From positions 9,718 through 73,717 of the forward strand of contig CAZQMF010000004.1 of NCBI GenBank assembly GCA_964594235.1: a stretch of DNA of 64,000 bases, in the 5' to 3' direction. The notes beneath the pieces were generated by a model. That model was not told the DNA's origin and made no database searches. It saw only the letters and a program-made list of their open reading frames with translations. The translations under genes were made by a program, and so were the position numbers. Position 1 is the stretch's first letter, and each line of letters begins with the position of its first letter. The DNA is from an uncultured Acidimicrobiia bacterium (lineage in GTDB: Bacteria; Actinomycetota; Acidimicrobiia; Spongiisociales; UBA4744). Positions 39,068-55,620 of this stretch are shown here, in pieces.

Positions 39068-39507
39068 TCCACACTCCTGATGGCTCTCACGATGGATCCA
39101 TACCCGGTGCAGCGACAGATATTGCCGGCAAGAGCCTCACGGATCTTCCCCTCGGAGGGATCCGGGGTGTGCTCGAGGAGATGTGTTGCGGCAACGACGA
39201 TTCCTGGCGTGCAGTAGCCGCACTGGACGCCTCCCTCGGCGACGAGGGCCTCCTGCACGGGGGACAGTCCGTCTTCAGGGGTGAGCCCTTCCACGGTGAT
39301 GACCTCGGCGCCCTCGGCGTCGAGACCCATGACGAGGCACGAGCACACCGGTTCCCCGTCCATCAGGACGGTGCACGATCCGCACTCCCCCTGTTCACAT
39401 GCATCCTTGGTCCCCGTCAGTTCGAGGTTCTCACGCAGAACCCGCAGAAGGCTCTGCGTCCCGTCGACAGCCACTTCCGTCTCAATGCCGTTCAGTCGGA
39501 ATCTCAT
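39064..39507 (-). CDS. [2Fe-2S]-binding subunit (system 1)
   Basis: 147 aa. CEQGECGSC and CGYCTPG...CRCTGY cluster motifs. Confidence 0.9.
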   Translation of the reverse strand: MRFRLNGIETEVAVDGTQSLLRVLRENLELTGTKDACEQGECGSCTVLMDGEPVCSCLVMGLDAEGAEVITVEGLTPEDGLSPVQEALVAEGGVQCGYCTPGIVVAATHLLEHTPDPSEGKIREALAGNICRCTGYGSIVRAIRSVE

Positions 39508-40295
39508 AGCAACCGCTCCAGAGTCCGTCGCGCTATCACACCGACGCCGTGCCGCCGGTAGCGTGCGGTCGCCCGGTGATCGGTAATAGGCGACGCCTCT
39601 TCGGATACGAGTCGCTGGAATTCATCGAGCGCAGCCTCGCTCGGTGATCGTTCTGCAGAGATCATCTCTTCCGCCTGCCACGCTCTCACCACCGTTGGAG
39701 CAACCGAGCCGAGCGCGACACGAGTCCTCCCGTCGGCGAAACGTGCGAGGCAGACCGAGGCGATTGCGATGACCATGGCCGAACGAGTGCCGATTTTCGA
39801 GAACCCCTGCCGGTCGGGCATCTCGGATGGCAGCTTGACACCGACGATGAGTTCCCCGGGGAGCAAGGCCGTGCGTTTGACGCCGGTGAAAAACTCGTTC
39901 CATCGCAGCTCCCGCGAGCCGTTCACGGACCGCGTCACAATCGTTGCATCGACCGCTGCGAGGAATGGGAGCGCATCACCGGCAGGACTCGCCGTTCCGA
40001 TGTTCCCTCCTATGGTTCCCGCGCTCCGGATCTGGGGTGATCCAACGGTACGGGCTGCCTCGGCCAGTCCGGGCCACGGCGAGTGTTCGAGGCGTGCGTG
40101 GGTGACGCCGGCGCCGATCCAATCGTCTCGCATTTCGCGGAGCTCTTCGATTCGTCGCAATGCGACCACGTGGGTGGGGTGGAGGTGTCCGAAGTTGACC
40201 TCGACCATCAGGTCTGTTCCGCCTGCGAGGCACGTCGTGTCGCCATCGAGCACCCGCACCGCGTCGTCGATCGTTGTCGGAAACTCGATGTGCAC
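39504..40295 (-). CDS. FAD-binding subunit of molybdopterin dehydrogenase (system 1)
   Basis: AGGTDLMVE and GTIGGNIG motifs. The listed start is TTG 40343. GTG 40295 gives a typical N-terminus (VHIEFPTTIDDAVRVL) and leaves a 62-nt divergent spacer. Confidence 0.8.
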   Translation of the reverse strand: MHIEFPTTIDDAVRVLDGDTTCLAGGTDLMVEVNFGHLHPTHVVALRRIEELREMRDDWIGAGVTHARLEHSPWPGLAEAARTVGSPQIRSAGTIGGNIGTASPAGDALPFLAAVDATIVTRSVNGSRELRWNEFFTGVKRTALLPGELIVGVKLPSEMPDRQGFSKIGTRSAMVIAIASVCLARFADGRTRVALGSVAPTVVRAWQAEEMISAERSPSEAALDEFQRLVSEEASPITDHRATARYRRHGVGVIARRTLERLL

Positions 40296-40357
40296 GTCAC
40301 GCCCAAATCTAGCCGCTTGCCGGCCCTGCCTACCCGCTGCCAAGTAAGGTCCGACTC

Positions 40358-41023
40358 ATGGACATCGATGCGATCCTTGCGCGGTGCGAGTCGGCTCTCG
40401 AAGGTTCCAACGCAGTTGACCTTTCAGGGTTGGGCTTCTGGAGGGTCGTTGCTCGGCTCAAGCGTGACCCGCAACTCGCTGCCCGCTACGGCAGTCGTGT
40501 TGCGAAGATCGACGAGAACGCGTTCTCTCGTTGGGCCTTTCTTCGGCTTCCCATCGGCGTCGGTATCGGTCTGATGGCGCTGTTCACCGTCGCGGGTCTC
40601 GCCGTGGTGTCGCTCGCCTACTACGTCGACGCTCCATGGAACGGCATCTGGGTGCTCATTGGCACGGGTGTACTCCTCGGTTCGACGCACACACTCGCGC
40701 ACTTCGTCGTAGGTCGAATCGTCGGTATTCGATTCACCCACTGGTTCATCGGGCGCACTCCCCAACCGGGCGTCAAGATCGACTATGTCAGCTACCTGGC
40801 CACGCCGCCACGTGCCCGGGCCTGGATGCACGCATCGGGGGCGCTGGCCACGAAACTGGTCCCGTTCCTCAACATCGGCGCCGCGTGGGGATCTCACTCT
40901 CCGGCATGGACGCTGTGGGTACTCCTGCTGCTCGGCCTCGTGATGATCGCGACGGACGTCTTTCTGTCGACGAAACAGTCGGACTGGAAGAAGTTCCGCC
41001 GAGAGATGCGCTACGCCTCCTGA
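40358..41023 (+). CDS. hypothetical polytopic membrane protein
   Basis: 221 aa. A soluble N-terminal region of about 70 aa, then about 5 hydrophobic helices. STHTLAHF (HxxxH). No family recognised. Confidence 0.5.
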   Translation: MDIDAILARCESALEGSNAVDLSGLGFWRVVARLKRDPQLAARYGSRVAKIDENAFSRWAFLRLPIGVGIGLMALFTVAGLAVVSLAYYVDAPWNGIWVLIGTGVLLGSTHTLAHFVVGRIVGIRFTHWFIGRTPQPGVKIDYVSYLATPPRARAWMHASGALATKLVPFLNIGAAWGSHSPAWTLWVLLLLGLVMIATDVFLSTKQSDWKKFRREMRYAS

Positions 41024-41128: not shown

Positions 41129-41152
41129 GGGCCCGCTCGCGGACCCTACATC
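41123..41152. terminator. terminator-like hairpin spanning the Zn-ADH stop
   Basis: 9-bp stem GATGTAGGG / CCCTACATC plus inner GC pairs. Lies between convergent genes. Confidence 0.45.
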
Positions 41153-42141
41153 GTAAGGACGGCTGCCCCCGCGACCCGGCCCTCGCGAAGGTCCAAGAGC
41201 GCCCGGTTGGCGTCCTCGAGCCCGTACTGCTGGACGACCGTTCTGATGGGAATCTCGGCGGCAAGCCGGAGGAACTCGCGGGCATCGTTCTTCGTGAAGT
41301 TGGCGACGCTGCGGATCTGTCTCTCCAGCCACAGGTACCGGTAGTCGAATGCGGGCATCTCGTCGAGGTGGATCGCGTTGATCGCGACTGCTCCTCCTCT
41401 ATCGACCGCTTTCAGTGCCTGAACGACGACGGACCCCACCGGTGCGAATGTCACAGCAGCGTCGAGCGGCACCGGCGGTACTTCGTTGTACCCGCCTGTC
41501 CAAACGGCTCCCATCTCGGTTGCCCGTGTGCGCTCCGCCTCGGATCTTGTTGCGACGTACACGCTGCATCCCCAGTGCAGGGCAACCTGCAGCGAGAGCA
41601 GCGCCGACGCTCCGAATCCGTACAATCCGAGCCTGCCACCCGGCTGAATTCCCGATACCTTCAGAGCGCGGTAGCCAATGACTCCACCGCACAGCAGCGG
41701 CGCCACGTCGACGTCAGATACGCCCTCCGGGAGTCGAAACGCGAACCCCGCGTCGACGGTCGCCTTCTCTGCATATCCGCCGTCGCGGTGCCATCCGGTG
41801 AACACCGCTGAGTGGCACAGGTTTTCGCGACCCGACCTGCAGAAGTCGCATGTTCCGCAACTCCCGCCGATCCATCCGACTCCGGCCCTGTCTCCCAGGC
41901 TCCACCCTCGCACCCCGTCTCCGACGGCGGCGACGGCCCCGACGATCTGGTGTCCTGGAATCACCGGAACCTCGTGCAGCTCGATGTCGCCTTCGACCTC
42001 CTGAAGGTCGGTGCGACACACACCGCATGCCTTCACGTCCAGCAGTAGTTCCCCGGCCATCGGAAAGGGATCATCTGTGCGCTCGAGGCGTAGCGGTTGC
42101 CGATCGATCGGCCCCGGTTCGTACAGCAGCTGCGCACGCAT
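41146..42141 (-). CDS. zinc-dependent alcohol dehydrogenase family oxidoreductase
   Basis: 331 aa. GVCRTDL...GHQIVG catalytic Zn site, structural Zn CGTCDFCRSGRENLC, Rossmann motif GFGASA. Confidence 0.85.
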   Translation of the reverse strand: MRAQLLYEPGPIDRQPLRLERTDDPFPMAGELLLDVKACGVCRTDLQEVEGDIELHEVPVIPGHQIVGAVAAVGDGVRGWSLGDRAGVGWIGGSCGTCDFCRSGRENLCHSAVFTGWHRDGGYAEKATVDAGFAFRLPEGVSDVDVAPLLCGGVIGYRALKVSGIQPGGRLGLYGFGASALLSLQVALHWGCSVYVATRSEAERTRATEMGAVWTGGYNEVPPVPLDAAVTFAPVGSVVVQALKAVDRGGAVAINAIHLDEMPAFDYRYLWLERQIRSVANFTKNDAREFLRLAAEIPIRTVVQQYGLEDANRALLDLREGRVAGAAVLTM

Positions 42142-42142
42142 G

Positions 42143-43612
42143 TCAGAGTTCTGCGAGGAGTCCGGTCTTCTCGTTGAACGCCTCGATGTGACGGTCCATT
42201 GCGTCGACCTCGGACTGGACTGACGTCCAGTAGTCGTCGTCGTACCACTGAGCCTGAATCTCCTCGTAGCTCCTACCCTGCTGCTCGACCCACGTGTAGT
42301 ACTTCAGGTTGTGGATGCGCTTGCGACCTTGGTAGTCGAGTTCGACCATGGCGTCGGTCCCGGTACCTCGCAGGTAGCGCTCGAACGCGCGGACTGCGTC
42401 GTCCCGAGTGAACGCACCACGCTCTTCATTGAGTTCCCTCAGTCGTGACTCGTACATCTCAACGGAGTCTGTCGCCACGGTCATCACGACGTCCCGGCCG
42501 GTCATCTCGTTCCACTTGGCGAACTTGATCGACGACAGCATGTTCGCAATGCTCGAGATGCCGAGCTGCGGGAGTTCCTCCACAAAGGATGCGTCCACAC
42601 CTCGCTCGATCAGGTAGTCCTGACCGACCGGTTCGTTGAAGAGCCGCAAAATCTGCATGGTGGCTTCGTCATCGATGGCTGTAACGAAGTCGGTGTTCTT
42701 CACATTGTGGATCCACGGAACGTGCTTGTCGCCAATCCCCTCGATTCGATGAGCGCCGAACCCATTCTCGAGCAACGTCGGGCACTGGAGGGCCTCACTC
42801 GCGACGATCTTCGACGTCGGGAACTGCTGCTTCATGTAGTCGCCTGAGCCGATCGTCCCTGCCGACCCCGTCGTCAACGCGACACCCCGGTACCGATCGC
42901 CGGATCCCAAGATCTGTTCCAGGACCTCGACCATCGCGGGACCGGTGATCGTGTAGTGCCACAGGTAGTTGCCGAACTCGTCGAACTGGTTGAAGATCAC
43001 GACGTCCTCGCCTGATCGCCTGAGCTCCCACGTCTTGTCGAAGATCTCTTTCACGTTGCTCTCCGAGCCAGGAGTGGCGATGACTTCGCCGGCGACCTTG
43101 GCGAGCCACTCGAACCGCTCTTTGCTCATTCCCTCGGGAAGGATCGCGACGGATTCACATGCGAGCAGATTCGAATCGTACGCCCCGCCCCGGCAGTAGT
43201 TGCCTGTCGACGGCCACACCGCCTTCTGTGTGGTCGGATCGAACTGGCCGGTCACCAGTCTCGGAACGAGGCACCCGAACGCAGCTCCGACCTTGTGGGA
43301 TCCCGTCGGGAACCATTTGCCGACCAGTGTGACGATGCGGGCCGGGGCACCGGTGAGTGCGGACGGGTACTCGAGGAAGTTCACACCACCGAACCCGCCC
43401 CCGCTCGGCACGGCTTCGTTCTTCCACGTGATCCTGAACAGGTTGACCGGGTCGAGGTCCCACAGGCCGACGTCACCGAGTCGCGTCTTGATCGCCTCGG
43501 GCACCAGCCTTGGGTCGCGCTGCTGAGCGAATGTCGGAATGATGATGTTGCGCTCGCGGGCCCTCTGAACCGCCCGCCCCAGCGGGCCTTCGTGAATGGT
43601 GAGGTCGATCAC
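42143..43612 (-). CDS. fold-type-II PLP-dependent enzyme (CysK/Trp-synthase-beta superfamily), atypically long
   Basis: 489 aa. Candidate PLP-Lys in PTGSHKVGAAFG and Asn-loop equivalent PSTGNYCRGGA. Extension of about 100 aa at each end. Substrate unknown. Confidence 0.75.
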   Translation of the reverse strand: MIDLTIHEGPLGRAVQRARERNIIIPTFAQQRDPRLVPEAIKTRLGDVGLWDLDPVNLFRITWKNEAVPSGGGFGGVNFLEYPSALTGAPARIVTLVGKWFPTGSHKVGAAFGCLVPRLVTGQFDPTTQKAVWPSTGNYCRGGAYDSNLLACESVAILPEGMSKERFEWLAKVAGEVIATPGSESNVKEIFDKTWELRRSGEDVVIFNQFDEFGNYLWHYTITGPAMVEVLEQILGSGDRYRGVALTTGSAGTIGSGDYMKQQFPTSKIVASEALQCPTLLENGFGAHRIEGIGDKHVPWIHNVKNTDFVTAIDDEATMQILRLFNEPVGQDYLIERGVDASFVEELPQLGISSIANMLSSIKFAKWNEMTGRDVVMTVATDSVEMYESRLRELNEERGAFTRDDAVRAFERYLRGTGTDAMVELDYQGRKRIHNLKYYTWVEQQGRSYEEIQAQWYDDDYWTSVQSEVDAMDRHIEAFNEKTGLLAEL

Positions 43613-44838
43613 GGAATCTCCAGTCTGTCGACAACTGCCTTGACGGCATCCAATGTGGGTTCGATCGTGTACGGCTCGGCACCCGCCATGCCGGCGGCGC
43701 GCACCGCAGACGCGACATCCTTGAGACCGTTCCCGGTGTTGAGAACGACAACACGGTCGGACTCTCCCAGGATCCCGAGCTCGCGTGCCCGAATGAATCC
43801 GGCGTATGCTGCAGCGCCGGCAGGTTCACCGAACACGCCGCTCGCTCGAGCCATCGCGGGAATCGCGTTCAGGATCTCGTCGTCTGCCACGGTCACGTAC
43901 GCACCCTCTGTTTCGATGACCGCCGCCATTGCCTTGATCCGGTCGCGTGGAAGGCCGGCCGAGATCGAGTCTGCAACCGTCGTCGCATCGATCGGTGGTT
44001 TGGTCAGCACATCCTCGCCGTTGGCCCAGGCTTGCGCGAGATAGTTGCTCCCCGCTGCTTGGACACCGATCAGCCTCGGAATCCGATCGGTCCATCCGAG
44101 GGCAACAAGATCCTTGAAGCCCTTGTGGAGGCCACCAATGATACATCCGTCCCCGACGCTCACTACGACCGCGTCGGGCACGTTCCACCCGAGCTGCTCT
44201 GCGATCTCGTAGGCGGCCGTCTTCTTTCCTTCGCTCATATACGGGTTGTAGGCGGTGTTGCGGTTGTACCAGCCGTACTCCGCCGCGACCTGCAGGCACA
44301 GCTCGAAGGCGTCGTCGTAGGTGCCCTGGACCGTAAACACGGTGGAACCGAACACGAGGAGCTGCGCGATCTTCGCTCGCGGCGCGGACGCCGGGACGAA
44401 GATCACGTTCCGTTGACCGACCGACGCCGCAATCCCTGCGAGCGCTGCCGCAGCGTTCCCTGTCGATGCGGTTGTCACAACGTCAGCACCACACTCTCTC
44501 GCCTTCACGACCGCGATGGCGCTCGCGCGGTCCTTGAAGGACGCCGTCGGTTCCCGTCCGTCATCCTTGATCCAGAGGCCACGCTCAACCTGGTACACGG
44601 GCGTCCAGCCGATGCGGAGTGGTGGAACCTCGGCGTTCTGTCGAATCGGCAGCAGCGGGCGGTATCGCCACATCGACCAATCGGAGCCGAGTTCGTCTCG
44701 ATCGATAGTCTCGCGCAAGGAGTCGTAGTCGTAGATGACGTCGAGGATGCCCTCATTGCCGTGTTTGGGACAGACGTACTCGACCTGGTCCGGCCCATAC
44801 ACCGTCCCGCAGATGACACAGCGAAGTCCGATGATCAT
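43609..44838 (-). CDS. threonine-synthase-like PLP enzyme with N-terminal zinc ribbon
   Basis: 409 aa. CVICG...CPKHG ribbon, TASFKDRASA PLP-Lys motif, ASTGNAAAALA. 4-nt overlaps on both sides. Confidence 0.8.
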   Translation of the reverse strand: MIIGLRCVICGTVYGPDQVEYVCPKHGNEGILDVIYDYDSLRETIDRDELGSDWSMWRYRPLLPIRQNAEVPPLRIGWTPVYQVERGLWIKDDGREPTASFKDRASAIAVVKARECGADVVTTASTGNAAAALAGIAASVGQRNVIFVPASAPRAKIAQLLVFGSTVFTVQGTYDDAFELCLQVAAEYGWYNRNTAYNPYMSEGKKTAAYEIAEQLGWNVPDAVVVSVGDGCIIGGLHKGFKDLVALGWTDRIPRLIGVQAAGSNYLAQAWANGEDVLTKPPIDATTVADSISAGLPRDRIKAMAAVIETEGAYVTVADDEILNAIPAMARASGVFGEPAGAAAYAGFIRARELGILGESDRVVVLNTGNGLKDVASAVRAAGMAGAEPYTIEPTLDAVKAVVDRLEIP

Positions 44839-45788
44839 CTCGTGATCCGTGTTCCGGTCTCACCTCGCACGGCCCGTTCGATGTTCTCGGGGTTCGTGAT
44901 GATGACCTCGGTGCCGCCAGCTTCGAGATACATGATCGCCGCCTCGATCTTGGGCGCCATGCTGCCTTTTGCAAAGTGGACGCCCTCACCGAGGTGCTGT
45001 TTCGCCTCCTCGAGCGTCATGGAGTCGACCCATCGCTGGTCCGATGTGCCCCATCCGAGCGCGACCTTCTCGACGGAGGTCGAGATCAGCAGGAGTTCCG
45101 CGCCGAGTTCACTCGCGAGCAGCGCCGAGGCCCGGTCCTTGTCGATCACCGCCGGAACGCCTCTCAGCCATCCCCCTGGATCGGCGACGACCGGGATTCC
45201 ACCACCACCGACACAGATGACGGCCATGCCACTCCCGAGGAGGTCACGAATGGCGCCGATCTCGACGATCCGTTTCGGTTGGGGAGATGCAACGACCCGC
45301 CGCCAGCCTCTGCCGGCATCCTCGACGACCTCCCATCCGTCAGACAGGCGCCGCTGTTCCGCCGTGCCCTCGTCCATGAACGAGCCGATCGGTTTCGACG
45401 GATGCTCGAATGCGGGGTCGGCCGGATCGACCTCGACCTGGGTGACGACCGTCGTGACTGTCTTGTCGATCCCGAGGGCAAGGAAGTCGTTGTAGAGGTT
45501 CTGCTGGAGCGCATACCCGATCGCGCCCTGGGTGTCGGCGCCACACACGTCGAGCGGGACCTCGTGGAGCTCACCTCGTGAAATCTCGGATCGCCGAAGG
45601 ATGAACCCGACCTGCGGCCCGTTCCCGTGGGTTATCGCGACGTCCCATCCTTCCCTGATCAGTTCAGCGATGTGGTGGTCGGTTTCCCCTGCTGCTATGT
45701 ACTGGTCCTCGACGGTGGAATGTGCACTGTCCTTGATCAACGAGTTGCCGCCGATCGCCACCACCGCCAGTTTCGTGTTGCCCAACAC
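44835..45788 (-). CDS. arcC: carbamate kinase
   Basis: 317 aa. AIGGNSL, THGNGPQVG, GGGGIPV, and a C-terminal amino-acid-kinase fold. AAGGAG lies before the GTG start. Confidence 0.9.
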   Translation of the reverse strand: MLGNTKLAVVAIGGNSLIKDSAHSTVEDQYIAAGETDHHIAELIREGWDVAITHGNGPQVGFILRRSEISRGELHEVPLDVCGADTQGAIGYALQQNLYNDFLALGIDKTVTTVVTQVEVDPADPAFEHPSKPIGSFMDEGTAEQRRLSDGWEVVEDAGRGWRRVVASPQPKRIVEIGAIRDLLGSGMAVICVGGGGIPVVADPGGWLRGVPAVIDKDRASALLASELGAELLLISTSVEKVALGWGTSDQRWVDSMTLEEAKQHLGEGVHFAKGSMAPKIEAAIMYLEAGGTEVIITNPENIERAVRGETGTRITR

Positions 45789-45814
45789 CGTCTCCTTCTG
45801 GAAGATGGCACTCC

Positions 45815-46789
45815 CTACATCGTCAGTGCCATCACTGCCTTCTGCGCGTGCAGCCTGTTCTCTGCCTGATCGAAGACGACACTATGTGAACCGTCGATGA
45901 CCCCGTCGGTGACCTCGATGTTTCGGTCCGCCGGCAGCGGGTGCATATAGATCGCGTCCTCGTTGGCGAGGGCCATCCTGCGCTCGTCGGTGATCCAATC
46001 CGTGTACTTGTCGCCGATCGCCTTCGATTCTGCATCGTCGGTCGTGGTCAGCATTGCACCCCAGCTCTTCGCGTACACGACGTCGGCTCCACGGAACCCC
46101 TCATCGAAGTCCTCGATGATCTCGAACGATCCGTGCGCCTTGCGGGCGTTCTCCTCTGCCTGCGCCACGATCTCGGGCATCAGCATGAACTCCGGTGGGC
46201 GGGTCAGTCTGACGTTCATCCCAAACCTCGTCGCCAGCAGGATCAGGCTCTGTGGAACGCTCAATGGCTTCTGGTAGCTGGACGCGTAGGCGTAGCTCAC
46301 GTTGATCGTCCTGCCGCGAGGATCACCCTTCTTCTCGATGATCGTCATCAGGTCCGCGAGGATCTGGTGCGGGTGGTACATCTCGCACTGCATGTTGAGT
46401 ACGGGCACTCGGCTTGCCTCGGCAACAGCACGCTGGTACCCATTTCCAACCCCCCAGTCGACCTGGCGAATCGCGATACCTGCGCTGTAACGACCGAGGA
46501 TCTCGCCGATCTCCGTGGCAGTGTCGCCGTGGCTGATCTGCGTCGTACGAGACTCCATGAACATGGCATGCCCGCCGAGTTGCGCCATCCCGGCCTCGAA
46601 ACTCGCTCTCGTCCTGGTGCTCGAGAAGAAGAACAGCATCGCGAGCACCTTGTCGCGCAGGTATGCGTGCGGCTCGCCGAGCGCCTGCTTGCGCTTCAAG
46701 TCCAACGCGACATCCAGCACCGTGTCGATCTCGTCCTTGGTCCACTCCTGGGTCGTGATCATGTCCCGACCCCTCAATCCCGTCTGCAT
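45815..46789 (-). CDS. ygeW: YgeW-like carbamoyltransferase of unassigned specificity
   Basis: 324 aa. STRTR carbamoyl-phosphate motif, HPHQ, YMHPLPAD. The stretch AYASSYQKPLSVPQSLILLATRFGM resembles my recollection of E. coli YgeW rather than OTC or ATC. Confidence 0.7.
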   Translation of the reverse strand: MQTGLRGRDMITTQEWTKDEIDTVLDVALDLKRKQALGEPHAYLRDKVLAMLFFFSSTRTRASFEAGMAQLGGHAMFMESRTTQISHGDTATEIGEILGRYSAGIAIRQVDWGVGNGYQRAVAEASRVPVLNMQCEMYHPHQILADLMTIIEKKGDPRGRTINVSYAYASSYQKPLSVPQSLILLATRFGMNVRLTRPPEFMLMPEIVAQAEENARKAHGSFEIIEDFDEGFRGADVVYAKSWGAMLTTTDDAESKAIGDKYTDWITDERRMALANEDAIYMHPLPADRNIEVTDGVIDGSHSVVFDQAENRLHAQKAVMALTM

Positions 46790-46856
46790 TGTTGCTCCTT
46801 GCGGTCTTCAGTCATCGGTTATCAGTTCAGAACGACGGAAGCACGGCCATCGGTAC

Positions 46857-46883
46857 TCCTACCGACAACCGAGAACTGAGAAC
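46857..46883 (-). repeat. heptad repeat array C (plus strand TCCTAC CGACAAC CGAGAAC TGAGAAC)
   Basis: Three 7-nt units starting 4 nt after the stop of the PyrB-like gene. Sense strand reads GTTCTCA GTTCTCG GTTGTCG GTAGG. Confidence 0.6.
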
Positions 46884-46887
46884 CGTC

Positions 46888-47847
46888 CTACTCCATCGCT
46901 CCCAGCACGAGGGCGAGGAGGGCCATGCGCATCACGACGCCGTTGTACGCCTCCTGCCAGTAGCGGGCGTACTTCGTGGCGTCCACATCGGGTGGCAGCT
47001 CGTCCATGCGCGGCAGCGAGTGCAAGATGATCGCATCCGACTTCGCCTTGTCTGCGAGGAGACCCCTGGTCACCTTGTAGTTGTCCGGGGTGAGACCCAT
47101 CTCGGCGCCGCGCTCGTCGCGGCCTTTCGTGTAATCGGCCTGCACGACTGGCTCCATGTAGATGACGTCCGCCTCTGCGATCACGTCCGCTACATGCTCG
47201 GCCGTACGGACGAACAGGTTCTGCTCGGCGAGTTCGGCCTTGAAGTCATCCGTCAGTGACATCTCGGGTGGCGAGACCGAAATCATCTGCGCATCGAACT
47301 GGGTGAGCGCATATCCGAGCGAGTGCATGGTGCGCATCCGCATGTCACCGATCGCGACGAACGTGAGGCCGTCGATCGTCCCCTTCTCGACCAGCACCGT
47401 GTAGAGATCGGTCAGCACCTGTGTCGGATGTTCTCCCCACCCGTCGCCTGCATTGATGACAGGCACACTCGCCCACTTGGCGGCCTCCTGCGGAGCACCC
47501 TGCTGGAAGTGCCGCATGACGATGGCGTCGCCGTAGTACTCCAGCATGTGAACGGTGTCCTTGATCGACTCCTGGTAGAAGTCGCCGGCACGCGTCATCT
47601 TGGCATCCGAGAACCCCAGCACGGCGCCTCCGAGCCGATGCATCGCCGCCTCATGAGCCATGCGTGTTCGAGTCGACGGCTGGTAGAAGGCGGTCAGCAG
47701 AGTCTTGTCCGACAGCAGATCGATGTTGCGACGTTCACGAGCGATCGGTTCCAGCTCGGATGCGGTCTCGAACACGTGCTCGAACTCTGCCCGTTCGAAG
47801 CCCTTCAGCGACAGGATGTCCCGGCCGGCGAAGCTCCTCATTGACAC
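46888..47847 (-). CDS. aspartate-carbamoyltransferase-like enzyme with a divergent second-substrate site
   Basis: 319 aa. STRTR, MRH, HPTQ and HSLPR conserved. The region aligned with the E. coli Asp-binding TRVQKER reads EPVVQAD. AAGGAG lies before the ATG. Confidence 0.75.
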   Translation of the reverse strand: MSMRSFAGRDILSLKGFERAEFEHVFETASELEPIARERRNIDLLSDKTLLTAFYQPSTRTRMAHEAAMHRLGGAVLGFSDAKMTRAGDFYQESIKDTVHMLEYYGDAIVMRHFQQGAPQEAAKWASVPVINAGDGWGEHPTQVLTDLYTVLVEKGTIDGLTFVAIGDMRMRTMHSLGYALTQFDAQMISVSPPEMSLTDDFKAELAEQNLFVRTAEHVADVIAEADVIYMEPVVQADYTKGRDERGAEMGLTPDNYKVTRGLLADKAKSDAIILHSLPRMDELPPDVDATKYARYWQEAYNGVVMRMALLALVLGAME

Positions 47848-47952: not shown

Positions 47953-48542
47953 GTGGAGGGTAGGAAGCCGACCAACCTGAGGCTGCTGTCGCTCGCCGGA
48001 GGCCTCTTCCCTGTCATCGCGGTCCTCGGCGCGCTTCTGGTCGGCGCCATCATGCTGCTCATCCTGGGAGCAGATCCCCTCGAGGGCTTCCGTTCGCGAA
48101 GCGCGGGTTTCTCGATTTTGCGGCGATCGAGGAGCACTGCGACCAGCTCATCGCCGATTTCAACGTGAAGACGCCGTCGCAGAAGACACTGCTGAGCGCG
48201 ATGTCGGGCGGCAATATCCAGAAGGCAATTTTCGCCCGGGAGTTGTCAGGCAACCCGAAAGTACTCATCGCAGCACAGCCGACACGTGGCGTCGACATCG
48301 GGGCCACCGAGTACATCCATCGGCGACTCCTCGACCAACGGTTCATCCACGAGAAGCTCCTCGATCAACGCAAGGCCGGGACCGCAACGCTGCTGATCTC
48401 CGAAGACCTCGACGAGATCCTCATCCTTGCCGATCGAATCGCGGTCATCTATGAGGGCCGGATCATGGGCATCGTCAACCACGCCGACGCCACGATCGAA
48501 CAACTCGGCCTGATGATGGCAGGCGTGGAAGCAGACAGCTGA
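47953..48542 (+). pseudogene. relic of a BMP/nucleoside-type ABC transporter (permease N-terminus joined to ATPase C-terminus)
   Basis: 47953 to about 48092 encodes a permease-like N-terminus ([29 protein letters not shown]). From about 48100, in another frame, there is an ATPase C-terminal fragment ([23 protein letters not shown]...MSGGNIQK...LLISEDLDEI). No Walker A and no permease body. Confidence 0.6.
48312..48371 (+). repeat. imperfect 30-bp tandem duplication inside the ABC ATPase relic
   Basis: TACATCCATCGGCGACTCCTCGACCAACGG is followed by TTCATCCACGAGAAGCTCCTCGATCAACGC, encoding [10 protein letters not shown] / [10 protein letters not shown]. Confidence 0.7.
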
Positions 48543-48553
48543 CAGCCGACAGC
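48533..48553 (-). repeat. heptad repeat array E (plus strand AGACAGC TGACAGC CGACAGC)
   Basis: Three 7-nt units 15 nt after the ygfK-like stop in sense orientation (GCTGTCG GCTGTCA GCTGTCT). Overlaps the stop of the ABC relic. Confidence 0.65.
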
Positions 48554-48568: not shown

Positions 48569-51500
48569 TCAGCTGTTCGCTGTCCGCTGTTCGCTGTTCG
48601 CTGTTGGCAGGTGCGGCATCGACCCTCGCAGGCCTTGCATGATGGCGTACATGGTCGCGGCTGCCTCGAGCCGCAGGACCGCTCCCTCCTCGCCTGACGC
48701 GTCGAGGACCGTGAACTCGTCGGCATCGATATGCACGGTTCCCTCGGGGCTTTCGTAGGTGAGCGAACCGTTCAGCTCTATGCGGTGTGTCTCCCCAGCG
48801 AACCGCCCCTCCATCGCATCCTCATAGAGCATGAACGCGTTGTCCGTTTCACTGAGGAAATCATCCTTGTTGAGGTAGATCCGCGGCTTGTCGCGATATG
48901 GCTCGCCTGCCGTTGGGCAGAACGTCACACAGTTCCCGCACTCGTTGCAGAAGTCGGTGAGCACCGCTATCTGGTACCCCTGTTCGACCGAGAACGACTC
49001 ACCCGGTGCAACGCTCGTCTCTCCATCTCCAATCGTGACAACGGACAGATCGAACGACAAAGGCTCCATCGCGTAGGTCATCAGCGCCATGTTGGGGCAC
49101 ACGCCGACACAGATGCTGCAGTAGAGGTCGCAGTCGAGGCAGCGCGATGCCTCCTTCTGGGCTTCCTCCACCGTGTAGGGGAACGTCCCTATTTCGAAGT
49201 TCTTGCGTTCGCCGACCGGAACGTGCGTGATGGGCACGCGGTACTCGCGGTGCGCCTTGCGCACCTGGATGTCCGCCACGGAGAACACCGGCTGGTTTCT
49301 CGGTGCCGGCACGACCCTGCCACCCTCCCGCTCGATGATCGCCGCTGCAGCCACCTTGGCGTCACCGGCCGCCTTCACGATCGATGCCGGTCCCGGAGCG
49401 GCGACGTCACCTGCCGCGAACACGCCCGGGATGGACGTCTCCATGGTGGCCGGATCGACGTCGAGGTATCCGCCGCGGGTCAACGCGGGCGCCTCCTCGT
49501 CGAAGAAGTCGATCAGGGCATGCTGGCTGATCGCGAGGATCATCGTGTCGAACGGAAGCTCGAACTCCGACCCTTCGATCGTGTGCGGCACCTTGCGGCC
49601 CGACGCGTCCCTGTCGCCCCGGTACTCGTTGCGAACGCAGACCAACCCGGCAAGGGCTCCGTTTTCGATGTGGAGAGACACCGGGCTGGTCAGCTCCTCG
49701 ACACGGATGCCCTCTTCGAGAAGCAGATGGACCTCCTCCCTGTCCGCAGGCATCTGATCGATCGTACGCCGGTAGACCACGGTCACGTTGTCCGTCCCGA
49801 GACGCCATGAGGTTCGTGCGCAGTCCATTGCGGTGTCGCCGGCCCCGATGACCGCCACCCTGTCTCCGATCGGCACCGGGTGACCCTCTCGTGCCGCCCT
49901 GAGGAAGTGAAGGGCATCCATGACACCGGCGGCTTCCTCACCGTCGAGTCCGAGGCGCTTGCCGATTTGGGCACCGGCGGCTACCAGCACATAGCGGTAG
50001 CCCTGCTTCCGTAGGTCCGAGACGGTGAAGTCTCGTCCCGCAATCTGGCCATATCTGGTTTCGACGCCGAGGTCATCGACGACGACCATGTCCTTGTCGA
50101 TCTCGCTCTGGGGAAGGCGATACTCCGGAATCGCGCCGGACACCATGCCACCCGGGTAGGGGTGCTGTTCGAACATCGTGACTTCGAACCCCCCACCGGC
50201 GAGGAGCTCAGCGGCGGACATGCCCGCGGGGCCGGCTCCGATGATCGCCACTTTGATGCCGGTCGGCGGCTTCGGGACCGTCGCTGGGGGTGCGGTCTCG
50301 AGCGTCATGACGAATCGTTTCATATCCCGGATAGCCAACGGCTCGTCGTAGTGGGTCCTGACACAGGTGTGCTCGCACAGGTGGTCGCAGACCTGACCAA
50401 GGATCGTCGGGATCGGGTTGTCCTGACGGGTGACCGCAACGGCGATCTCCCAGTCGCCGTCTCGAACGGCGCGCATGTACTCGGGGACCCGCTGATTCAC
50501 CGGGCACTCGTCCTCGCATGGCGCTGCGATGCAGTCGAATAGGTCCAGGGGGCGCACGGTCTTGGAGCGGCTTCTGAAGAACGAACCCTTCTCGAGATCC
50601 CATGCGTGTCTCGTCTCCGCCGAGTAGGCGCGCAGGTTGACCCGTGCGGCGGCCGTGACCAGGGCATGACGAGTCGCCGGGTTTCGAGGCAGAATCCCGC
50701 CTTCACTGAGACGTACGACCTCTTCGGCCGCCGGCTCCACGCCGAGAGTTTCTGCGAACACTCCTGTGAGCTCGCCTGGGCGTTCCAGGGCGGTGCGCAC
50801 GATCAACTCGTCGAGGTTCCCTGCTCCCGCAACGTCGAGCGCGGCGTCGGTGGTTTCGAAGTACTGCAGCATCCGCATGTACCCACCGGACTTGAGCAAG
50901 TCACTGCACACGGTGACGGTGCTCATTCCTGAGGCGAGGAGTGACGGGACGTTGAAGGCGTCCGCTCCGCCCGCAAACGACATGAGCAAGTCCCCTGCGA
51001 ACTCCTCGTTGAGCCGGTTGGCGACACTGGTGGTGATCGCGTGCAGCGCCCTGCCGGACATGTACATGGTCTCGTCGGTGAACACATCGCGGAAGTTCTC
51101 CACCTCGAGGGTGTTCGTGAGCTTGACGCCAAACGTCAAGCCCTCGGCTGCTCCGACGGTTGTGAGTCTGCGCAGCATCGGAACTGCGTCTGAGTACTGA
51201 AGGTCGTGTCCGAAGGCGGCGTCGGGAACAGGCACGTCCCGGTAGCCGAGACCTGACAGGATGGAGCGAACACCGTCCGGACCCAACAGCGTTGGATTCA
51301 GCTTCACGCTCGTATGTAGATGTCGCTGCTTCATGAGGTACTGGCTGATCGTCTCGATCTCGTCCGGCGGGCAACCGTGCATCGTGGAGAGGGTGATCGT
51401 GTCCGACAGCCGTGTCGGAATGTCGATGGTGCGAACCTCCGGGTAGTCAGCTGCGACGATGTCGACCATCTCGGCGACCCCCTCGGAGGCGTCGTTCATC

Positions 51501-52012: not shown

Positions 52013-52025
52013 GCTCACACTCCTC

Positions 52026-53048
52026 TCACAGCCGGGCGTGGAGTCGCTTCGCTTGCTCTCGAGCTCTCGCCCGGATCTCCTGCGCGTCGACCTTCGTCGG
52101 GCTGCCATTCTGGAACACGACCTCGCCGTCCATCTCGACCTTCAGGGGCCGGACACCAGGGGTGAACGCCAGGTGCCAAGGGTCCATCGGTTCGTATGAC
52201 CACGTCACCTCGTCCTCGAGCGCCTCGGGCGCGAGGTTCCATCCTTCCTCCAGCCACCTCCAGGCTGTCTCAGGCGATGCGGTCACGTCGACAGACCGAT
52301 GCATCACGTAGGCAAGACGGAACGACTCGACCATCGCGGCGCCTATCCCGTCCGTGCCGAGCGCCACGGGGTTGTCGAATCGCACCGGGTTCGCGTACCC
52401 GACGGCGTTGTTCAGGTTGGACCGAGGGTTGTGCACGACCGTGCCACGGAGTTCGTGGTCGGTCGGCAGATGCACGGCGTGGATCAGCAACCAGTCGTCG
52501 GTCGTGAGCCCTTGGAGCTTGAATGTGGCGTCTCTGTCGATTTCGCCTTCTGCGACATGGACGTGGACACCGACCCTCATATCGTTGGCGAGTCCGGCAG
52601 CGGCCTCCAGGCTCCCGTCAGTGCAGGTGAACGCTGCGTGGATCCCAACGAGCCCGTTGCCACCTGCTTTGATGAACCGTTCGTTCTCCGCGAGTCCCCT
52701 CAGGGCCCCTTCGTGCCCGTGCCGGTCCGTGATCCCGTAGGCACAGACGACTCGCACGCCGACCTCGGCACAGGCATCTGCGATCACCGACAGGCTCCCT
52801 TCGATCGCGTTCGGCGACTCGTTGTGATCGATGATGACGGTGGTTCCCTGTTCGAGCGCCTCGAGTGCGCCGAGTTTGGCCGACCACTCGAGCATCTCGA
52901 GGTCGAGAGCAGTGTCGAGCCTCCACCACACCTGCTCGAGAATCTCGAGGAAGTTGGTCGGGGTAGCCGGCGGCGCCGGCATGCCTCGTGCGAGTGTCGA
53001 ATACAGGTGGTGATGTGCGCACACCATGCCAGGGGTCGTCGATGCCAT
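52026..53048 (-). CDS. ssnA: SsnA-like amidohydrolase lacking the usual N-terminal beta-sandwich segment
   Basis: 340 aa. Starts at MASTTPGMVCAHHHLYS, with the HxH site at residues 11-13. VWWRLDTALD, HNPRSNLNNAVGY and LGTDGIGAAM match my recollection of E. coli SsnA. AGGAGG lies 4 nt before the ATG. Confidence 0.8.
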   Translation of the reverse strand: MASTTPGMVCAHHHLYSTLARGMPAPPATPTNFLEILEQVWWRLDTALDLEMLEWSAKLGALEALEQGTTVIIDHNESPNAIEGSLSVIADACAEVGVRVVCAYGITDRHGHEGALRGLAENERFIKAGGNGLVGIHAAFTCTDGSLEAAAGLANDMRVGVHVHVAEGEIDRDATFKLQGLTTDDWLLIHAVHLPTDHELRGTVVHNPRSNLNNAVGYANPVRFDNPVALGTDGIGAAMVESFRLAYVMHRSVDVTASPETAWRWLEEGWNLAPEALEDEVTWSYEPMDPWHLAFTPGVRPLKVEMDGEVVFQNGSPTKVDAQEIRARAREQAKRLHARL

Positions 53049-55617: not shown

Positions 55618-55620
55618 CGG

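What the first reader, a model, noticed from the sequence alone, without database searches (positions are those of the whole stretch)
41146..47847. ATP-yielding carbamoyl-phosphate module with unusual partners replacing ygeX/ygeY/hyuA
The gene string on the minus strand is: PyrB-like carbamoyltransferase, YgeW-like carbamoyltransferase, carbamate kinase, ThrC-like PLP enzyme, 489-aa CysK-superfamily PLP enzyme, Zn-ADH. The 4-nt overlaps lie at 44835-44838 and 43609-43612. A 1-nt gap lies at 42142, and the other gaps are 26 and 98 nt. In the E. coli-type cluster, YgeW and carbamate kinase are accompanied by diaminopropionate ammonia-lyase YgeX (also a fold-type-II PLP enzyme), peptidase YgeY and hydantoinase HyuA. 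None of those three is present here. Instead there are two different fold-type-II PLP enzymes, a second carbamoyltransferase and a dehydrogenase. Two carbamoyltransferases feeding one carbamate kinase implies two successive phosphorolytic decarbamoylations of a di-ureido or ureido-amino intermediate. The PLP enzymes would then carry out deamination or elimination. I do not know of a described pathway with this composition.
Basis: inference. Interest (0 to 1): 0.8.

Follow-up and report, generated by a model that had tools for sequence, protein, structure and literature searches.

The report
Two-transferase variant of anaerobic urate breakdown
This operon looks like an undescribed version of the recently discovered anaerobic uric-acid breakdown pathway, one that could make two ATP per urate instead of one and that finishes with two uncharacterised vitamin-B6 (PLP) enzymes instead of the known one.

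Summary
They sit inside a purine-catabolism island. That island holds YgfK, SsnA, XdhD/YgfM-like and PucD-type molybdoenzymes, an 8-oxoguanine-deaminase-like gene and adenosine deaminase, i.e. the upstream half of the reductive urate (2,8-dioxopurine) pathway published in 2025. HyuA, YgeY and YgeX are absent from the window.

The five-gene core is pseudo-ATCase (CT1), AOTCase/YgeW-type transferase (CT2), carbamate kinase, ThrC-like PLP enzyme (PLP409) and a 489-aa CysK-like PLP enzyme (PLP489). I examined 163 related loci from Chloroflexota, Acidimicrobiia, Desulfobacterota and other phyla. The core recurs there, often beside HyuA, YgeY, SsnA, YgfK or XDH orthologues, and never with YgeX.

CT1 lacks the aspartate-binding residues of ATCase. 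CT2 lacks the ornithine motif of OTCase. PLP409 lacks the phosphate-site residues of threonine synthase. They are therefore not housekeeping pyrB, argF or thrC.

Best reading: CT2 and CT1 phosphorolyse the two ureido groups of 2,3-diureidopropionate. Carbamate kinase then makes up to 2 ATP. The PLP pair takes the place of YgeX.

The dehydrogenase is lineage-specific, and the hydantoin-opening step is unassigned. I rate this a new variant of a known pathway, inferred from comparative genomics only.

The parts
46888..47847 (-). CT1: pseudo-ATCase (ATCase-derived carbamoyltransferase). Likely true start is 47841.
   Evidence: OTCace_N and OTCace domains. Best solved relative is the P. abyssi ATCase, E 1.8e-72. 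It keeps STRTR, HPTQ and the R167-equivalent residue. It has EPVVQ[AP]DY in place of TRxQKER and HSLP in place of HPLP, and both changes are conserved in 11 orthologues. This fits the 'pseudo-ATCase' definition of Barba et al. 2013.
45815..46789 (-). CT2: carbamoyltransferase of the AOTCase/YgeW clade.
   Evidence: It scores below every NCBIfam cut-off and is 33% identical to E. coli YgeW. It lacks the OTCase motifs DxxxSMG and HCLP. It shares YAKSWGA with X. campestris AOTCase, and SWAYxxSYxKPxSVPQ with YgeW.
44835..45788 (-). Carbamate kinase (YqeA/ArcC type).
   Evidence: NF009007 scores 376.5 bits against a cut-off of 266. It is 48% identical to E. coli YqeA. It overlaps the next gene by 4 nt.
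43609..44838 (-). PLP409: ThrC-fold PLP enzyme with an N-terminal CxxC...CPxH zinc-ribbon-like motif. It is not a threonine synthase.
   Evidence: PALP domain, E 2.9e-70. Four solved threonine synthases share STGNT and NPxR[IL]EGQKT. PLP409 and 51 relatives have STGNA and NP[YF][MT]xEGKKT instead. It lies within 10 kb of PLP489 (usually adjacent) in 54 of 79 loci.
42143..43612 (-). PLP489: 489-aa fold-type-II PLP enzyme of an uncharacterised, very conserved family. Databases annotate it as 'cysteine synthase'.
   Evidence: It resembles CysK/CBS only weakly: 83.6 bits against a cut-off of 350.95, and the best solved structure is CBS at E 4e-17. The Schiff-base Lys107, the STGNY carboxylate loop and the GSAGT phosphate loop are invariant. 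It is 67-78% identical across phyla and is found in at least 586 species-representative genomes.
41146..42141 (-). Zn-dependent alcohol dehydrogenase family protein. Lineage-specific accessory of unknown role.
   Evidence: TIGR02822 scores 386.8 against a cut-off of 283.5. It lies 1 nt after PLP489. An orthologue occurs only in the close relative L003 (and its near-identical duplicate L004), i.e. 1 of 163 counted loci.
48569..52108 (-). YgfK-type Fe-S flavoenzyme (reductive dearomatisation of 2,8-dioxopurine in E. coli).
   Evidence: TIGR03315 scores 907.5 against a cut-off of 835.3. It is 34% identical to E. coli YgfK over 1117 aligned positions, and the alignment starts at 52012.
52026..53048 (-). 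SsnA-like amidohydrolase (short form, 340 aa).
   Evidence: NF005540 scores 255 bits, below the cut-off of 444. It is 32% identical to E. coli SsnA residues 56-438.
53068..55626 (-). Fused 2Fe-2S/molybdopterin enzyme of the selenium-dependent XDH type.
   Evidence: TIGR03311 scores 842.8 against a cut-off of 830.45.
55710..59285 (+). Split XdhD/YgfM-like enzyme: FAD subunit 55710-56525, 2Fe-2S subunit 56501-56989, Mo subunit 56982-59285.
   Evidence: Pfam and NCBIfam hits. The Mo subunit is the best window match to E. coli XdhD, at 41% over 794 aa.
36857..40343 (-). PucD-type xanthine dehydrogenase: Mo subunit 36857-39067, 2Fe-2S subunit 39064-39507, FAD subunit 39504-40343.
35380..36765 (+). 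8-oxoguanine-deaminase-like amidohydrolase.
   Evidence: NF006055 scores 678.4 against a cut-off of 532. An orthologue lies upstream of GntR-CT1 in 28 of 40 metagenomic loci that have enough upstream sequence.
34363..35367 (-). Adenosine deaminase (the catalytic domain of the longer listed ORF).
   Evidence: NF006850 scores 515.9 against a cut-off of 419, matching residues 213-539 of ORF 34363-35988. The L003 orthologue is 334 aa.
40358..41023 (+). 221-aa predicted membrane protein with no family hit. Conserved only in L003/L004.
   Evidence: 65% identity.
47962..48551 (+). Remnant of a deleted Bmp/PnrA-type ABC importer operon.
   Evidence: tblastn with the L003 orthologues places permease residues 8-50 at 47962-48090. 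These abut ATPase residues 386-540 at 48090-48551.

Best explanation
The string is the downstream half of a variant of the reductive (2,8-dioxopurine) uric-acid degradation pathway, probably in an Acidimicrobiia bacterium.

Upstream steps (enzymes identified by homology; activities not tested). The flanking genes convert purines to urate, using adenosine deaminase, an 8-oxoguanine-deaminase-like enzyme and a PucD-type XDH. Urate is then reduced to 2,8-dioxopurine by the XdhD/YgfM-like enzymes. [quoted passage not shown]

Unassigned step. After hydantoin opening, for which no gene is assigned in this window, the product would be 2,3-diureidopropionate.

Downstream steps (inferred).
1. CT2, of the AOTCase/YgeW clade, phosphorolyses the 3-ureido group.
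2. CT1, a pseudo-ATCase, phosphorolyses the alpha (2-) ureido group of 3-amino-2-ureidopropionate. In E. coli that step is hydrolysed without energy gain by the M20 peptidase YgeY.
3. Carbamate kinase converts both carbamoyl phosphates to ATP, giving up to 2 ATP per urate instead of 1.
4. The resulting 2,3-diaminopropionate is converted to pyruvate and ammonia by PLP409 and/or PLP489. These are non-orthologous replacements of the diaminopropionate ammonia-lyase YgeX.

The Zn-dehydrogenase is a lineage-specific add-on of unknown role.
For: Context:
- YgfK, Se-XDH-type, split XdhD-like, SsnA-like, PucD-type XDH, 8-oxoguanine-deaminase-like and adenosine deaminase genes flank the string.
- The pathway and its di-ureido intermediate are described.

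Conservation:
- CT1-CT2-CK-PLP409-PLP489 recurs at 67-76% identity in Chloroflexota (e.g. L002, L006, L010) and in other lineages.
- Gene order is shuffled in L098/L099 while gene content is kept.
- Counts over the 163 loci: CT1 100, CT2 100, CK 90, PLP409 92, PLP489 100, HyuA 30, M20 22, YgeX 0.

Orthologues of the E. coli pathway sit beside the module:
- HyuA at 36-42% identity in 24 of the PLP489-centred loci.
- YgeY at 40-69% identity.
- A YgeW orthologue at 67% in L050.
- YgfK, SsnA and XdhD.
- L060 has PLP489-PLP409-[185 aa]-HyuA-YgeY-CT-XDH, which is the E. coli gene set with the PLP pair where YgeX would be.
- L084 links the module to HyuA, SsnA and an F420/luciferase-type reductase. 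This is the Chloroflexota variant that Li et al. noted.

Positional equivalence. The gene directly upstream of CT2 is CT1 in 71 loci and a YgeY-type M20 peptidase in 8.

Active sites:
- CT1 keeps the carbamoyl-phosphate residues and the alpha-carboxylate Arg but has lost R229 and Q231. Acidic residues (E, D) appear in that segment.
- CT2 shares motifs with AOTCase, which acts on an N-alpha-acylated omega-ureido amino acid, and with YgeW.

Precedent. A pseudo-ATCase, Rxyl_2847, has been reported to phosphorolyse the di-ureido acid allantoate next to a carbamate kinase.

Operon structure. There are tight junctions and no terminator-like site on the coding strand inside the string.
Against: - No biochemical or expression data exist for any of these proteins.
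- HyuA is absent from this window and from all Actinobacteria-type compact loci (L003, L086, L087, L089, L094). One required step therefore has no candidate.
- M20, CT1 and CT2 occur together in L110, L120, L138 and L161 by strict adjacency. By gene content they also co-occur in L117, L121, L126 and L136. CT1 is therefore not simply a substitute for YgeY.
- One PLP enzyme would suffice for diaminopropionate elimination, so the need for two is unexplained.
- PLP489 also occurs alone in unrelated contexts in about 12 genomes.
- In many Chloroflexota loci no XDH, YgfK or SsnA gene lies within 10 kb.
- Which transferase removes which ureido group rests only on analogy.
- The two published E. coli studies disagree on the same point for YgeW and YgeY.
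Confidence: 0.6

Rival explanations
1. The transferase and kinase part works as proposed, but the two PLP enzymes do not simply replace YgeX. They might act on a ureido-amino acid such as albizziin or 3-amino-2-ureidopropionate. They might carry out a beta-replacement that salvages the C3 skeleton into serine or cysteine. Or they might each handle one enantiomer.
For: - CysK/CBS-type enzymes typically perform beta-replacement through an aminoacrylate intermediate (established knowledge).
- Two different PLP enzymes are conserved together in 54 of 79 loci although one lyase would suffice.
- PLP489 also occurs without the pathway genes.
- The stereochemistry of the pathway intermediates is unsettled.
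Against: - YgeX is absent from all 163 loci even though every other E. coli pathway enzyme has orthologues there. Some enzyme must therefore remove diaminopropionate.
- No sulfur-assimilation or serine-metabolism genes accompany the pair.
Confidence: 0.2
2. The five-gene module degrades a different ureido compound, and its position beside purine genes reflects a general nitrogen-heterocycle island. Candidate substrates are allantoate or ureidoglycine from oxidative uricolysis, N-carbamoyl-beta-alanine or beta-ureidoisobutyrate from pyrimidines, or an imported citrulline-like or albizziin-like amino acid.
For: - In L002, L006 and L010 the module, with a GntR regulator, has no XDH, YgfK or SsnA gene within 10 kb.
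- A pseudo-ATCase is reported to act on allantoate.
- HyuA-type enzymes and YgfK relatives also serve pyrimidine reduction.
Against: - No uricase, allantoinase or allantoicase gene was seen in the window or the loci examined.
- The accompanying M20 proteins are YgeY orthologues (up to 69%), and the amidohydrolases are HyuA homologues.
- An 8-oxoguanine-deaminase-like gene, XDHs, SsnA and YgfK are the recurrent neighbours.
- Beta-alanine-type products are not substrates for fold-type-II alpha,beta-eliminases (established knowledge).
Confidence: 0.15
3. The genes are housekeeping pyrB, argF, thrC and cysK that happen to be clustered.
For: - CT1 passes the TIGR00670 ATCase cut-off (253 against 236.95), and PLP409 passes TIGR00260 thrC (180.9 against 167.1).
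- Public annotations call them aspartate carbamoyltransferase and cysteine synthase.
Against: - CT1 has lost the RxQ aspartate motif and HPLP.
- CT2 has lost DxxxSMG and HCLP.
- PLP409 has lost the conserved Thr, Ser and Arg of the threonine synthase phosphate site.
- PLP489 scores 84 bits against a CysK cut-off of 351.
- The string is conserved together with a carbamate kinase, a GntR/UTRA regulator, a nucleoside-type ABC importer and catabolic purine genes across phyla.
Confidence: 0.03
4. The cluster is biosynthetic. It would make a carbamoylated diaminopropionate derivative such as a beta-ureidoalanine-type building block.
For: CysK/SbnA-like PLP enzymes and carbamoyltransferases take part in diaminopropionate and beta-ureidoalanine biosynthesis in some natural-product pathways (my own knowledge, not tested here).
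Against: - Carbamate kinase, a GntR/UTRA regulator, importer genes and degradative purine enzymes are the conserved neighbours.
- No NRPS, PKS or tailoring genes appear in any locus.
Confidence: 0.02

Closest known systems
Reductive uric-acid (2,8-dioxopurine / 'yanthine') degradation cluster of E. coli and gut Bacillota: xdhD-ygfM-ygfK-ssnA-hyuA-ygeW-ygeY-ygeX-yqeA (Li et al. 2025, PMC12507026; Liu et al. 2025, bioRxiv 10.1101/2025.04.24.650524)
   Same: - Homologues of XdhD/YgfM, YgfK, SsnA and YqeA are present in the window.
- There is a carbamoyltransferase of the YgeW clade next to a carbamate kinase.
- The logic is the same: a ureido group is turned into ATP via carbamoyl phosphate.
- Related loci also carry HyuA and YgeY orthologues.
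   Different: - The window has no HyuA, YgeY or YgeX.
- There is a second transferase, derived from ATCase.
- Two unrelated fold-type-II PLP enzymes stand where YgeX would be.
- CT2 is only 33% identical to YgeW and lacks its insertions.
- XdhD is split into three subunits.
- An extra Zn-dehydrogenase is present.
Pseudo-ATCases of Barba et al. 2013 (PMC4016543). Subgroup 1 includes the ureidoglycine carbamoyltransferase Rxyl_2847. The subgroup-2 protein of Nocardioides sp. JS614 lies next to a ygeW homologue, xdhABC and hyuA.
   Same: - CT1's closest authentic relative is the P. abyssi ATCase.
- It keeps STRT and HPTQ, has HSLP instead of HPLP, and has lost RxQ.
- It sits next to a YgeW-clade gene, XDH genes and a carbamate kinase.
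- The Rxyl_2847 precedent is phosphorolysis of a di-ureido acid coupled to carbamate kinase.
   Different: - The 2013 work assigned no function to the Nocardioides-type pair, and it predates knowledge of the reductive pathway.
- Rxyl_2847 belongs to an oxidative (uricase/allantoinase) context and has HPLA.
- I did not compare CT1 directly with those sequences, so its subgroup is undetermined. Its HSLP and V/M-E-P motifs resemble the tabulated subgroup-3 signature.
Arginine deiminase and agmatine deiminase pathways (catabolic OTCase or PTCase plus carbamate kinase)
   Same: Phosphorolysis of a ureido group to carbamoyl phosphate, followed by substrate-level ATP formation by carbamate kinase.
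   Different: - There are two transferases per kinase here.
- CT2 lacks the ornithine-binding motif.
- No deiminase was found among the ORFs scanned.
- The context is purine catabolism, not arginine or agmatine catabolism.
N-acetylornithine carbamoyltransferase (AOTCase; PDB 3KZC/3L02)
   Same: CT2 shares the VVYAKSWGA segment and the KPxS..V loop region. Its NF003384 score is 252.7 bits.
   Different: - The score is below the family cut-off of 288.
- CT2 has HPLP rather than HCLP.
- Its setting is catabolic, next to a carbamate kinase.

Membership tests
Reductive urate degradation cluster (E. coli type) | XdhD/YgfM-type molybdoenzyme | tested here: met
   The Mo subunit at 56982-59285 is 41% identical to E. 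coli XdhD. FAD and 2Fe-2S subunits lie directly upstream. There is also a TIGR03311-positive fused enzyme at 53068-55626.
Reductive urate degradation cluster (E. coli type) | YgfK reductase | tested here: met
   TIGR03315 scores 907.5 bits against a cut-off of 835.3, with 34% identity to E. coli YgfK.
Reductive urate degradation cluster (E. coli type) | SsnA ring-opening amidohydrolase | tested here: inconclusive
   SsnA models are the best hit, but at 255 bits against a cut-off of 444. Identity is 32% to E. coli residues 56-438. The protein is 340 aa and lacks the N-terminal ~55 residues.
Reductive urate degradation cluster (E. coli type) | HyuA hydantoinase | tested here: not met
   tblastn finds no hit in the 64-kb window at E<0.01. 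Orthologues are present in 30 related loci.
Reductive urate degradation cluster (E. coli type) | YgeW carbamoyltransferase plus YqeA carbamate kinase | tested here: inconclusive
   The kinase criterion is met (48% identity; NF009007 above its cut-off). CT2 is only a clade relative of YgeW: 33% identity, and 175 bits against a cut-off of 453.
Reductive urate degradation cluster (E. coli type) | YgeY M20 peptidase | tested here: not met
   No hit in the window.
Reductive urate degradation cluster (E. coli type) | YgeX diaminopropionate ammonia-lyase | tested here: not met
   Only a 28%/124-aa generic match to PLP409, and NF006058 scores 49 bits against a cut-off of 276. None is found in 163 related loci.
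Aspartate carbamoyltransferase (PyrB) | Aspartate-binding RxQ (R229/Q231) and HPLP motifs | tested here: not met
   CT1 has EPVVQ and HSLP, and both are conserved in 11 orthologues. It passes TIGR00670 (253 against 236.95) but fails NF002032 (226.8 against 263).
Pseudo-ATCase (Barba et al. 2013) | STRT and HPTQ kept; HPLP and RxQ altered; purine or hydantoin gene context | tested here: met
   Motifs, judged against Table 1 of the paper. Context. Subgroup membership was not tested because no reference sequences were available.
Ornithine carbamoyltransferase (ArgF/ArcB) | DxxxSMG ornithine motif and HCLP | tested here: not met
   CT2 has YAKSWGAM and HPLP. It scores below all OTCase cut-offs.
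Threonine synthase (ThrC) | Phosphate-site residues (STGNT Thr; Ser and Arg of the N-S-x-N-P-x-R segment) | tested here: not met
   PLP409 and 51 relatives have STGNA and NP[YF][MT]xEGKKT, whereas four solved threonine synthases keep the Thr and Arg. That these residues bind phosphate is from my memory of the T. thermophilus structure. It passes TIGR00260 (180.9 against 167.1) but fails NF006050 (293.6 against 303).
Cysteine synthase / cystathionine beta-synthase | Family-level sequence score; PLP lysine and carboxylate loop | tested here: not met
   PLP489 scores 83.6 bits against a cut-off of 350.95. The PLP Lys and the STGN loop are present. It is therefore a fold-type-II enzyme but not a CysK or CBS family member.
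Carbamate kinase | Equivalog-level score | tested here: met
   NF009007 scores 376.5 against a cut-off of 266. TIGR00746 scores 353.9, just under its cut-off of 358.25.

The most novel reading that the evidence does not exclude
In the Acidimicrobiia-type clusters, which never contain HyuA, the module would be a distinct branch rather than a one-for-one substitution. The pseudo-ATCase and the AOTCase/YgeW-type transferase would strip both carbamoyl groups as carbamoyl phosphate, giving 2 ATP per urate, possibly starting from a still-cyclic ureido intermediate. The two uncharacterised PLP families would perform chemistry not seen in the E. coli pathway, on a ureido- or diamino-acid. That would define two new PLP enzyme functions and a new pseudo-ATCase activity, spread over hundreds of environmental species.
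Probability: 0.2. Interest if true: 0.8.

Novelty: new variant of a known kind. Interest (0 to 1): 0.62.

Why it matters
- **Reach of the pathway.** The anaerobic urate pathway was worked out only in 2025, and only in gut bacteria. This module suggests that environmental Chloroflexota, Acidimicrobiia, Desulfobacterota and others run a different downstream half.
- **Energy yield.** Conserving both ureido groups as carbamoyl phosphate would double the substrate-level ATP yield per urate.
- **Function for unknowns.** It would give a function to a very conserved, widespread PLP family and to ThrC-like and pseudo-ATCase families. Thousands of database entries currently annotate these as cysteine synthase, threonine synthase and aspartate carbamoyltransferase.
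- **An open question.** The pattern, in which an ATCase-derived enzyme or a YgeY-type peptidase sits next to a YgeW-clade enzyme, bears on an unsettled point: which ureido group YgeW removes and which YgeY removes.
- **Application.** A two-ATP version could interest groups engineering uricolytic probiotics.

Tried and rejected
- **Structure prediction of PLP489.** AlphaFold2 with the 9-sequence alignment gave a mean pLDDT of 52. That is too poor for a fold search, so none was run. All available homologues are at least 67% identical, so no deeper alignment could be built.
- **RNA and signal scans.** The Rfam scan of the whole window found nothing. The promoter and terminator scan was uninformative, apart from showing no terminator-like site on the coding strand within the string.
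- **Search for a HyuA substitute.** The 221-aa ORF at 40358-41023 is a membrane protein with no family hit. The amidohydrolase at 35380-36765 is a confident member of the 8-oxoguanine deaminase family, and it co-occurs with HyuA elsewhere. The genes after PLP489 in other HyuA-less loci are heterogeneous: an alpha/beta hydrolase, a Band-7 protein, CorA and a nuclease-family protein. No candidate emerged.
- **Genes between PLP409 and PLP489 in other lineages.** These are a GT2 glycosyltransferase, VanZ, an MBL-fold protein, a glycoside hydrolase, an M55 peptidase and an AI-2E transporter. They show no common theme, so I do not count them as pathway members.
- **Strict exclusivity of CT1 and M20.** I first thought CT1 and the M20 peptidase were mutually exclusive. 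The CT1-centred metagenome loci showed that all three enzymes can co-occur, so I weakened the claim to positional equivalence.
- **Literature.** Searches found no description of this variant.

Full report
**1. Observation**

The junctions are ATGA at 44838-44835, GTGA at 43612-43609 and TGA-c-ATG around 42142. The remaining gaps are 26 and 98 nt.

Pfam and NCBIfam confirm the domain content:
- two aspartate/ornithine-type carbamoyltransferases;
- a carbamate kinase (NF009007, 376.5 bits against a cut-off of 266);
- two fold-type-II PLP proteins;
- a Zn-dehydrogenase (TIGR02822, above its cut-off).

The only correction concerns the first transferase. It most likely starts at the ATG at 47841, which is preceded by AAGGAG and matches the orthologues' MRSFAGRD start. 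The GTG at 47847 is less likely.

tblastn with the E. coli proteins finds no HyuA and no YgeY in the 64 kb. YgeX gives only a generic 28%/124-aa match.

**2. Context**

The string lies inside a purine-catabolism island of about 25 kb.

Directly upstream on the same strand:
- a YgfK orthologue (TIGR03315, 907.5 against 835.3);
- a short SsnA-like amidohydrolase;
- a fused 2Fe-2S/Mo enzyme that passes the selenium-dependent XDH model.

Divergently transcribed is a three-subunit enzyme (FAD, 2Fe-2S, Mo). Its Mo subunit is the window's best match to E. coli XdhD, at 41%.

Downstream lie a PucD-type XDH, an 8-oxoguanine-deaminase-like protein (NF006055, 678 against 532) and adenosine deaminase.

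The rest of the window is actinobacterial-style housekeeping: ruvAB, secDF, relA, pdxST, thrS, fusA and gltA. The closest relatives of the 489-aa protein are labelled Acidimicrobiia.

**3. What is known**

Two studies from 2025 established the reductive urate pathway (commentary).
1. XdhD/YgfM (or XdhAC) reduces urate to 2,8-dioxopurine.
2. YgfK dearomatises it.
3. [quoted passage not shown]
4. HyuA opens the hydantoin to give 2,3-diureidopropionate.
5. YgeW phosphorolyses one ureido group, and YqeA makes ATP from the carbamoyl phosphate.
6. YgeY hydrolyses the other ureido group.
7. YgeX converts 2,3-diaminopropionate to pyruvate.

The two groups disagree on which ureido group YgeW removes. 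The window encodes the upstream enzymes but has a different downstream set. Neither paper, nor any other paper I could find, describes that set. In its neighbourhood survey, Li et al. counted any PF00185 protein as 'YgeW' and any PF00291 protein as 'YgeX', which would hide this difference.

**4. Comparative genomics**

*Distribution of the 489-aa protein.* It belongs to a very conserved family. Identity is 67-78% between Acidimicrobiia, Chloroflexota, Desulfobacterota, Myxococcota, Burkholderiaceae, Terriglobia and Halanaerobiales. It matched at least 586 species-representative genomes.

*Loci collected around PLP489.* I analysed 79 loci.
- The ThrC-like gene lies within 10 kb, usually adjacent, in 54.
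- Carbamoyltransferases are present in 35.
- Carbamate kinase is present in 31.

*Loci collected around CT1.* I analysed 80 metagenomic loci. The usual order is: 8-oxoguanine-deaminase-like, GntR, (M20), CT1, CT2, CK, (PnrA-type ABC importer), PLP409, (GT2), PLP489, a 192-aa unknown protein, HyuA.

*Counts over all 163 loci*:

| Gene | Loci |
|---|---|
| CT1 | 100 |
| CT2 | 100 |
| CK | 90 |
| PLP409 | 92 |
| PLP489 | 100 |
| HyuA | 30 |
| M20 | 22 |
| YgeX | 0 |
| ADH | 1 |

*Identity of the accompanying genes*. The amidohydrolases are HyuA homologues at 36-42% identity. The M20 proteins are YgeY orthologues at 40-69%. One locus, L050, has a 67% YgeW orthologue.

*Informative individual loci.*
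- L060 (Halanaerobiales) reads PLP489-PLP409-[185 aa]-HyuA-YgeY-CT-XDH. This is the E. coli gene set with the PLP pair where YgeX would be.
- L098 and L099 keep the same gene content in a different order.
- L084 is a complete Anaerolineaceae chromosome. It joins the module to HyuA, SsnA, Fno, CofE, CofD and a luciferase-like reductase. This is the F420 variant Li et al. mentioned for Chloroflexota.

The module is therefore a conserved functional unit tied to reductive purine degradation. All five proteins are 67-76% identical between phyla, which suggests the unit moves horizontally. That last point is an inference.

**5. The genes are not housekeeping**

*CT1.* It keeps STRTR, HPTQ and the Arg equivalent to R167. 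In place of the ATCase segment TRxQKER it has EPVVQ[AP]DY, which means R229 becomes P and Q231 becomes V. It has HSLP in place of HPLP, and its 80s loop is remodelled. These features are conserved in 11 orthologues. Barba et al. (2013) defined exactly this kind of protein as a 'pseudo-ATCase'. They noted one in Nocardioides sp. JS614 next to a ygeW homologue, xdhABC and hyuA, and assigned it no function. They reported another, Rxyl_2847, as a ureidoglycine carbamoyltransferase that phosphorolyses the di-ureido acid allantoate next to a carbamate kinase.

*CT2.* It lacks the OTCase motifs DxxxSMG and HCLP. It shares VVYAKSWGA with N-acetylornithine carbamoyltransferase and SWAYxxSYxKPxSVPQ with YgeW. 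It belongs to the AOTCase/YgeW clade, but it is not a YgeW equivalog (175 bits against 453).

*PLP409.* The protein and 51 relatives have STGNA and NP[YF][MT]xEGKKT. Four solved threonine synthases have STGNT and NPxR[IL]EGQKT. From my memory of the T. thermophilus structure, these positions bind the phosphate of O-phosphohomoserine.

*PLP489.* It keeps the Schiff-base lysine, the carboxylate-binding STGN loop and the phosphate-binding loop. It scores far below the CysK and CBS cut-offs.

**6. Proposed mechanism (inferred)**

*CT2.* It would act like YgeW on 2,3-diureidopropionate. Its kinship with AOTCase, whose substrate has an acylated alpha-amine and an omega-ureido group, favours attack on the 3-ureido group.

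*CT1.* It is derived from an enzyme that handles an alpha-ureido acid. It has lost the beta-carboxylate-binding residues and gained acidic ones. It would phosphorolyse the 2-ureido group of 3-amino-2-ureidopropionate.

*Positional support.* The gene immediately upstream of CT2 is CT1 in 71 loci and a YgeY-type M20 peptidase in 8. This agrees with the order proposed by Liu et al. The equivalence is not strict. M20, CT1 and CT2 are strictly adjacent in L110, L120, L138 and L161, and by gene content they also co-occur in L117, L121, L126 and L136.

*Energy.* With both carbamoyl groups passed to carbamate kinase, the yield would be up to 2 ATP per urate.

*PLP enzymes.* The diaminopropionate would be removed by PLP409 and/or PLP489. 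PLP489 is the more constant partner, because it occurs with pathway genes even where PLP409 is absent (L023, L039, L058, L075). Why two PLP enzymes are kept is unexplained.

**7. Open points**

- HyuA is missing here and in all Actinobacteria-type compact loci (L003, L086, L087, L089, L094), and I found no substitute. It may be encoded elsewhere, or this lineage may take a different route.
- The dehydrogenase and the 221-aa membrane protein are confined to the window's close relatives.
- The structure prediction of PLP489 failed for lack of diverse homologues.
- All functional statements are inferences from homology, motifs and gene context.

**8. Verdict**

What remains new is the variant itself:
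- a pseudo-ATCase paired with a YgeW-clade transferase on one carbamate kinase;
- two uncharacterised PLP families in place of YgeX;
- a wide distribution in environmental bacteria.

I rate it a new variant of a known kind, with interest 0.62.

Noticed in passing
window 47962-48551 (+): The apparently empty 720-nt spacer between CT1 and ygfK holds the fused ends of a deleted Bmp/PnrA-type ABC importer operon. Permease residues 8-50 abut ATPase residues 386-540 of the orthologues, which are intact in L003/L004. This implies a deletion of about 4.5 kb in this lineage.
   Followed up: yes
window 52026-53048 (-): The SsnA-like protein is only 340 aa, against 442 in E. coli. It lacks about 55 N-terminal residues, and an in-frame stop just upstream prevents a longer reading. 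tblastn matches in L047, L087, L089 and L094 span a similar ~340-aa length and lie next to XDH or the module.
   Followed up: partly
window 36857-40343 (-), 53068-55626 (-), 55710-59285 (+): Three separate xanthine-dehydrogenase-family molybdoenzymes lie in one island: a PucD type, a fused selenium-dependent-XDH type and a split XdhD-like type. Which of them reduces urate to 2,8-dioxopurine is unclear.
   Followed up: partly
L017, L045, L059, L061, L079 and other Anaerolineaceae loci (about 9000-19000): A GtrB/ArnC-like GT2 glycosyltransferase sits between PLP409 and PLP489 (a tblastn match in 46 of 163 loci). A conserved 192-aa protein with no Pfam hit follows PLP489 (34 loci). After HyuA comes a conserved block of two unknown proteins, a proton-antiporter-like protein, another unknown protein and SelB.
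   Followed up: partly
L084 (CP070708.1, Anaerolineaceae chromosome) 400-20700: A single cluster joins CT1-CT2, the ABC importer, PLP409, GT2, PLP489, HyuA, a Nudix protein, SsnA, Fno, CofE, CofD and a luciferase-like F420 enzyme. YgfK appears to be replaced by an F420-dependent reductase, together with cofactor F420 biosynthesis genes.
   Followed up: partly
window 42143-43612 and the loci: All five module proteins, not only PLP489, are 67-76% identical between Acidimicrobiia and Chloroflexota. That is unusually high for cross-phylum comparisons and suggests recent horizontal spread of the cassette.
   Followed up: no
window 59289-61277 (-) and 22736-25810 (+): The nicotinate phosphoribosyltransferase ORF carries about 155 residues before the first domain match. 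The EF-G ORF carries about 345. These may be real N-terminal extensions or may be artefacts of taking the first possible start codon in high-GC DNA.
   Followed up: no
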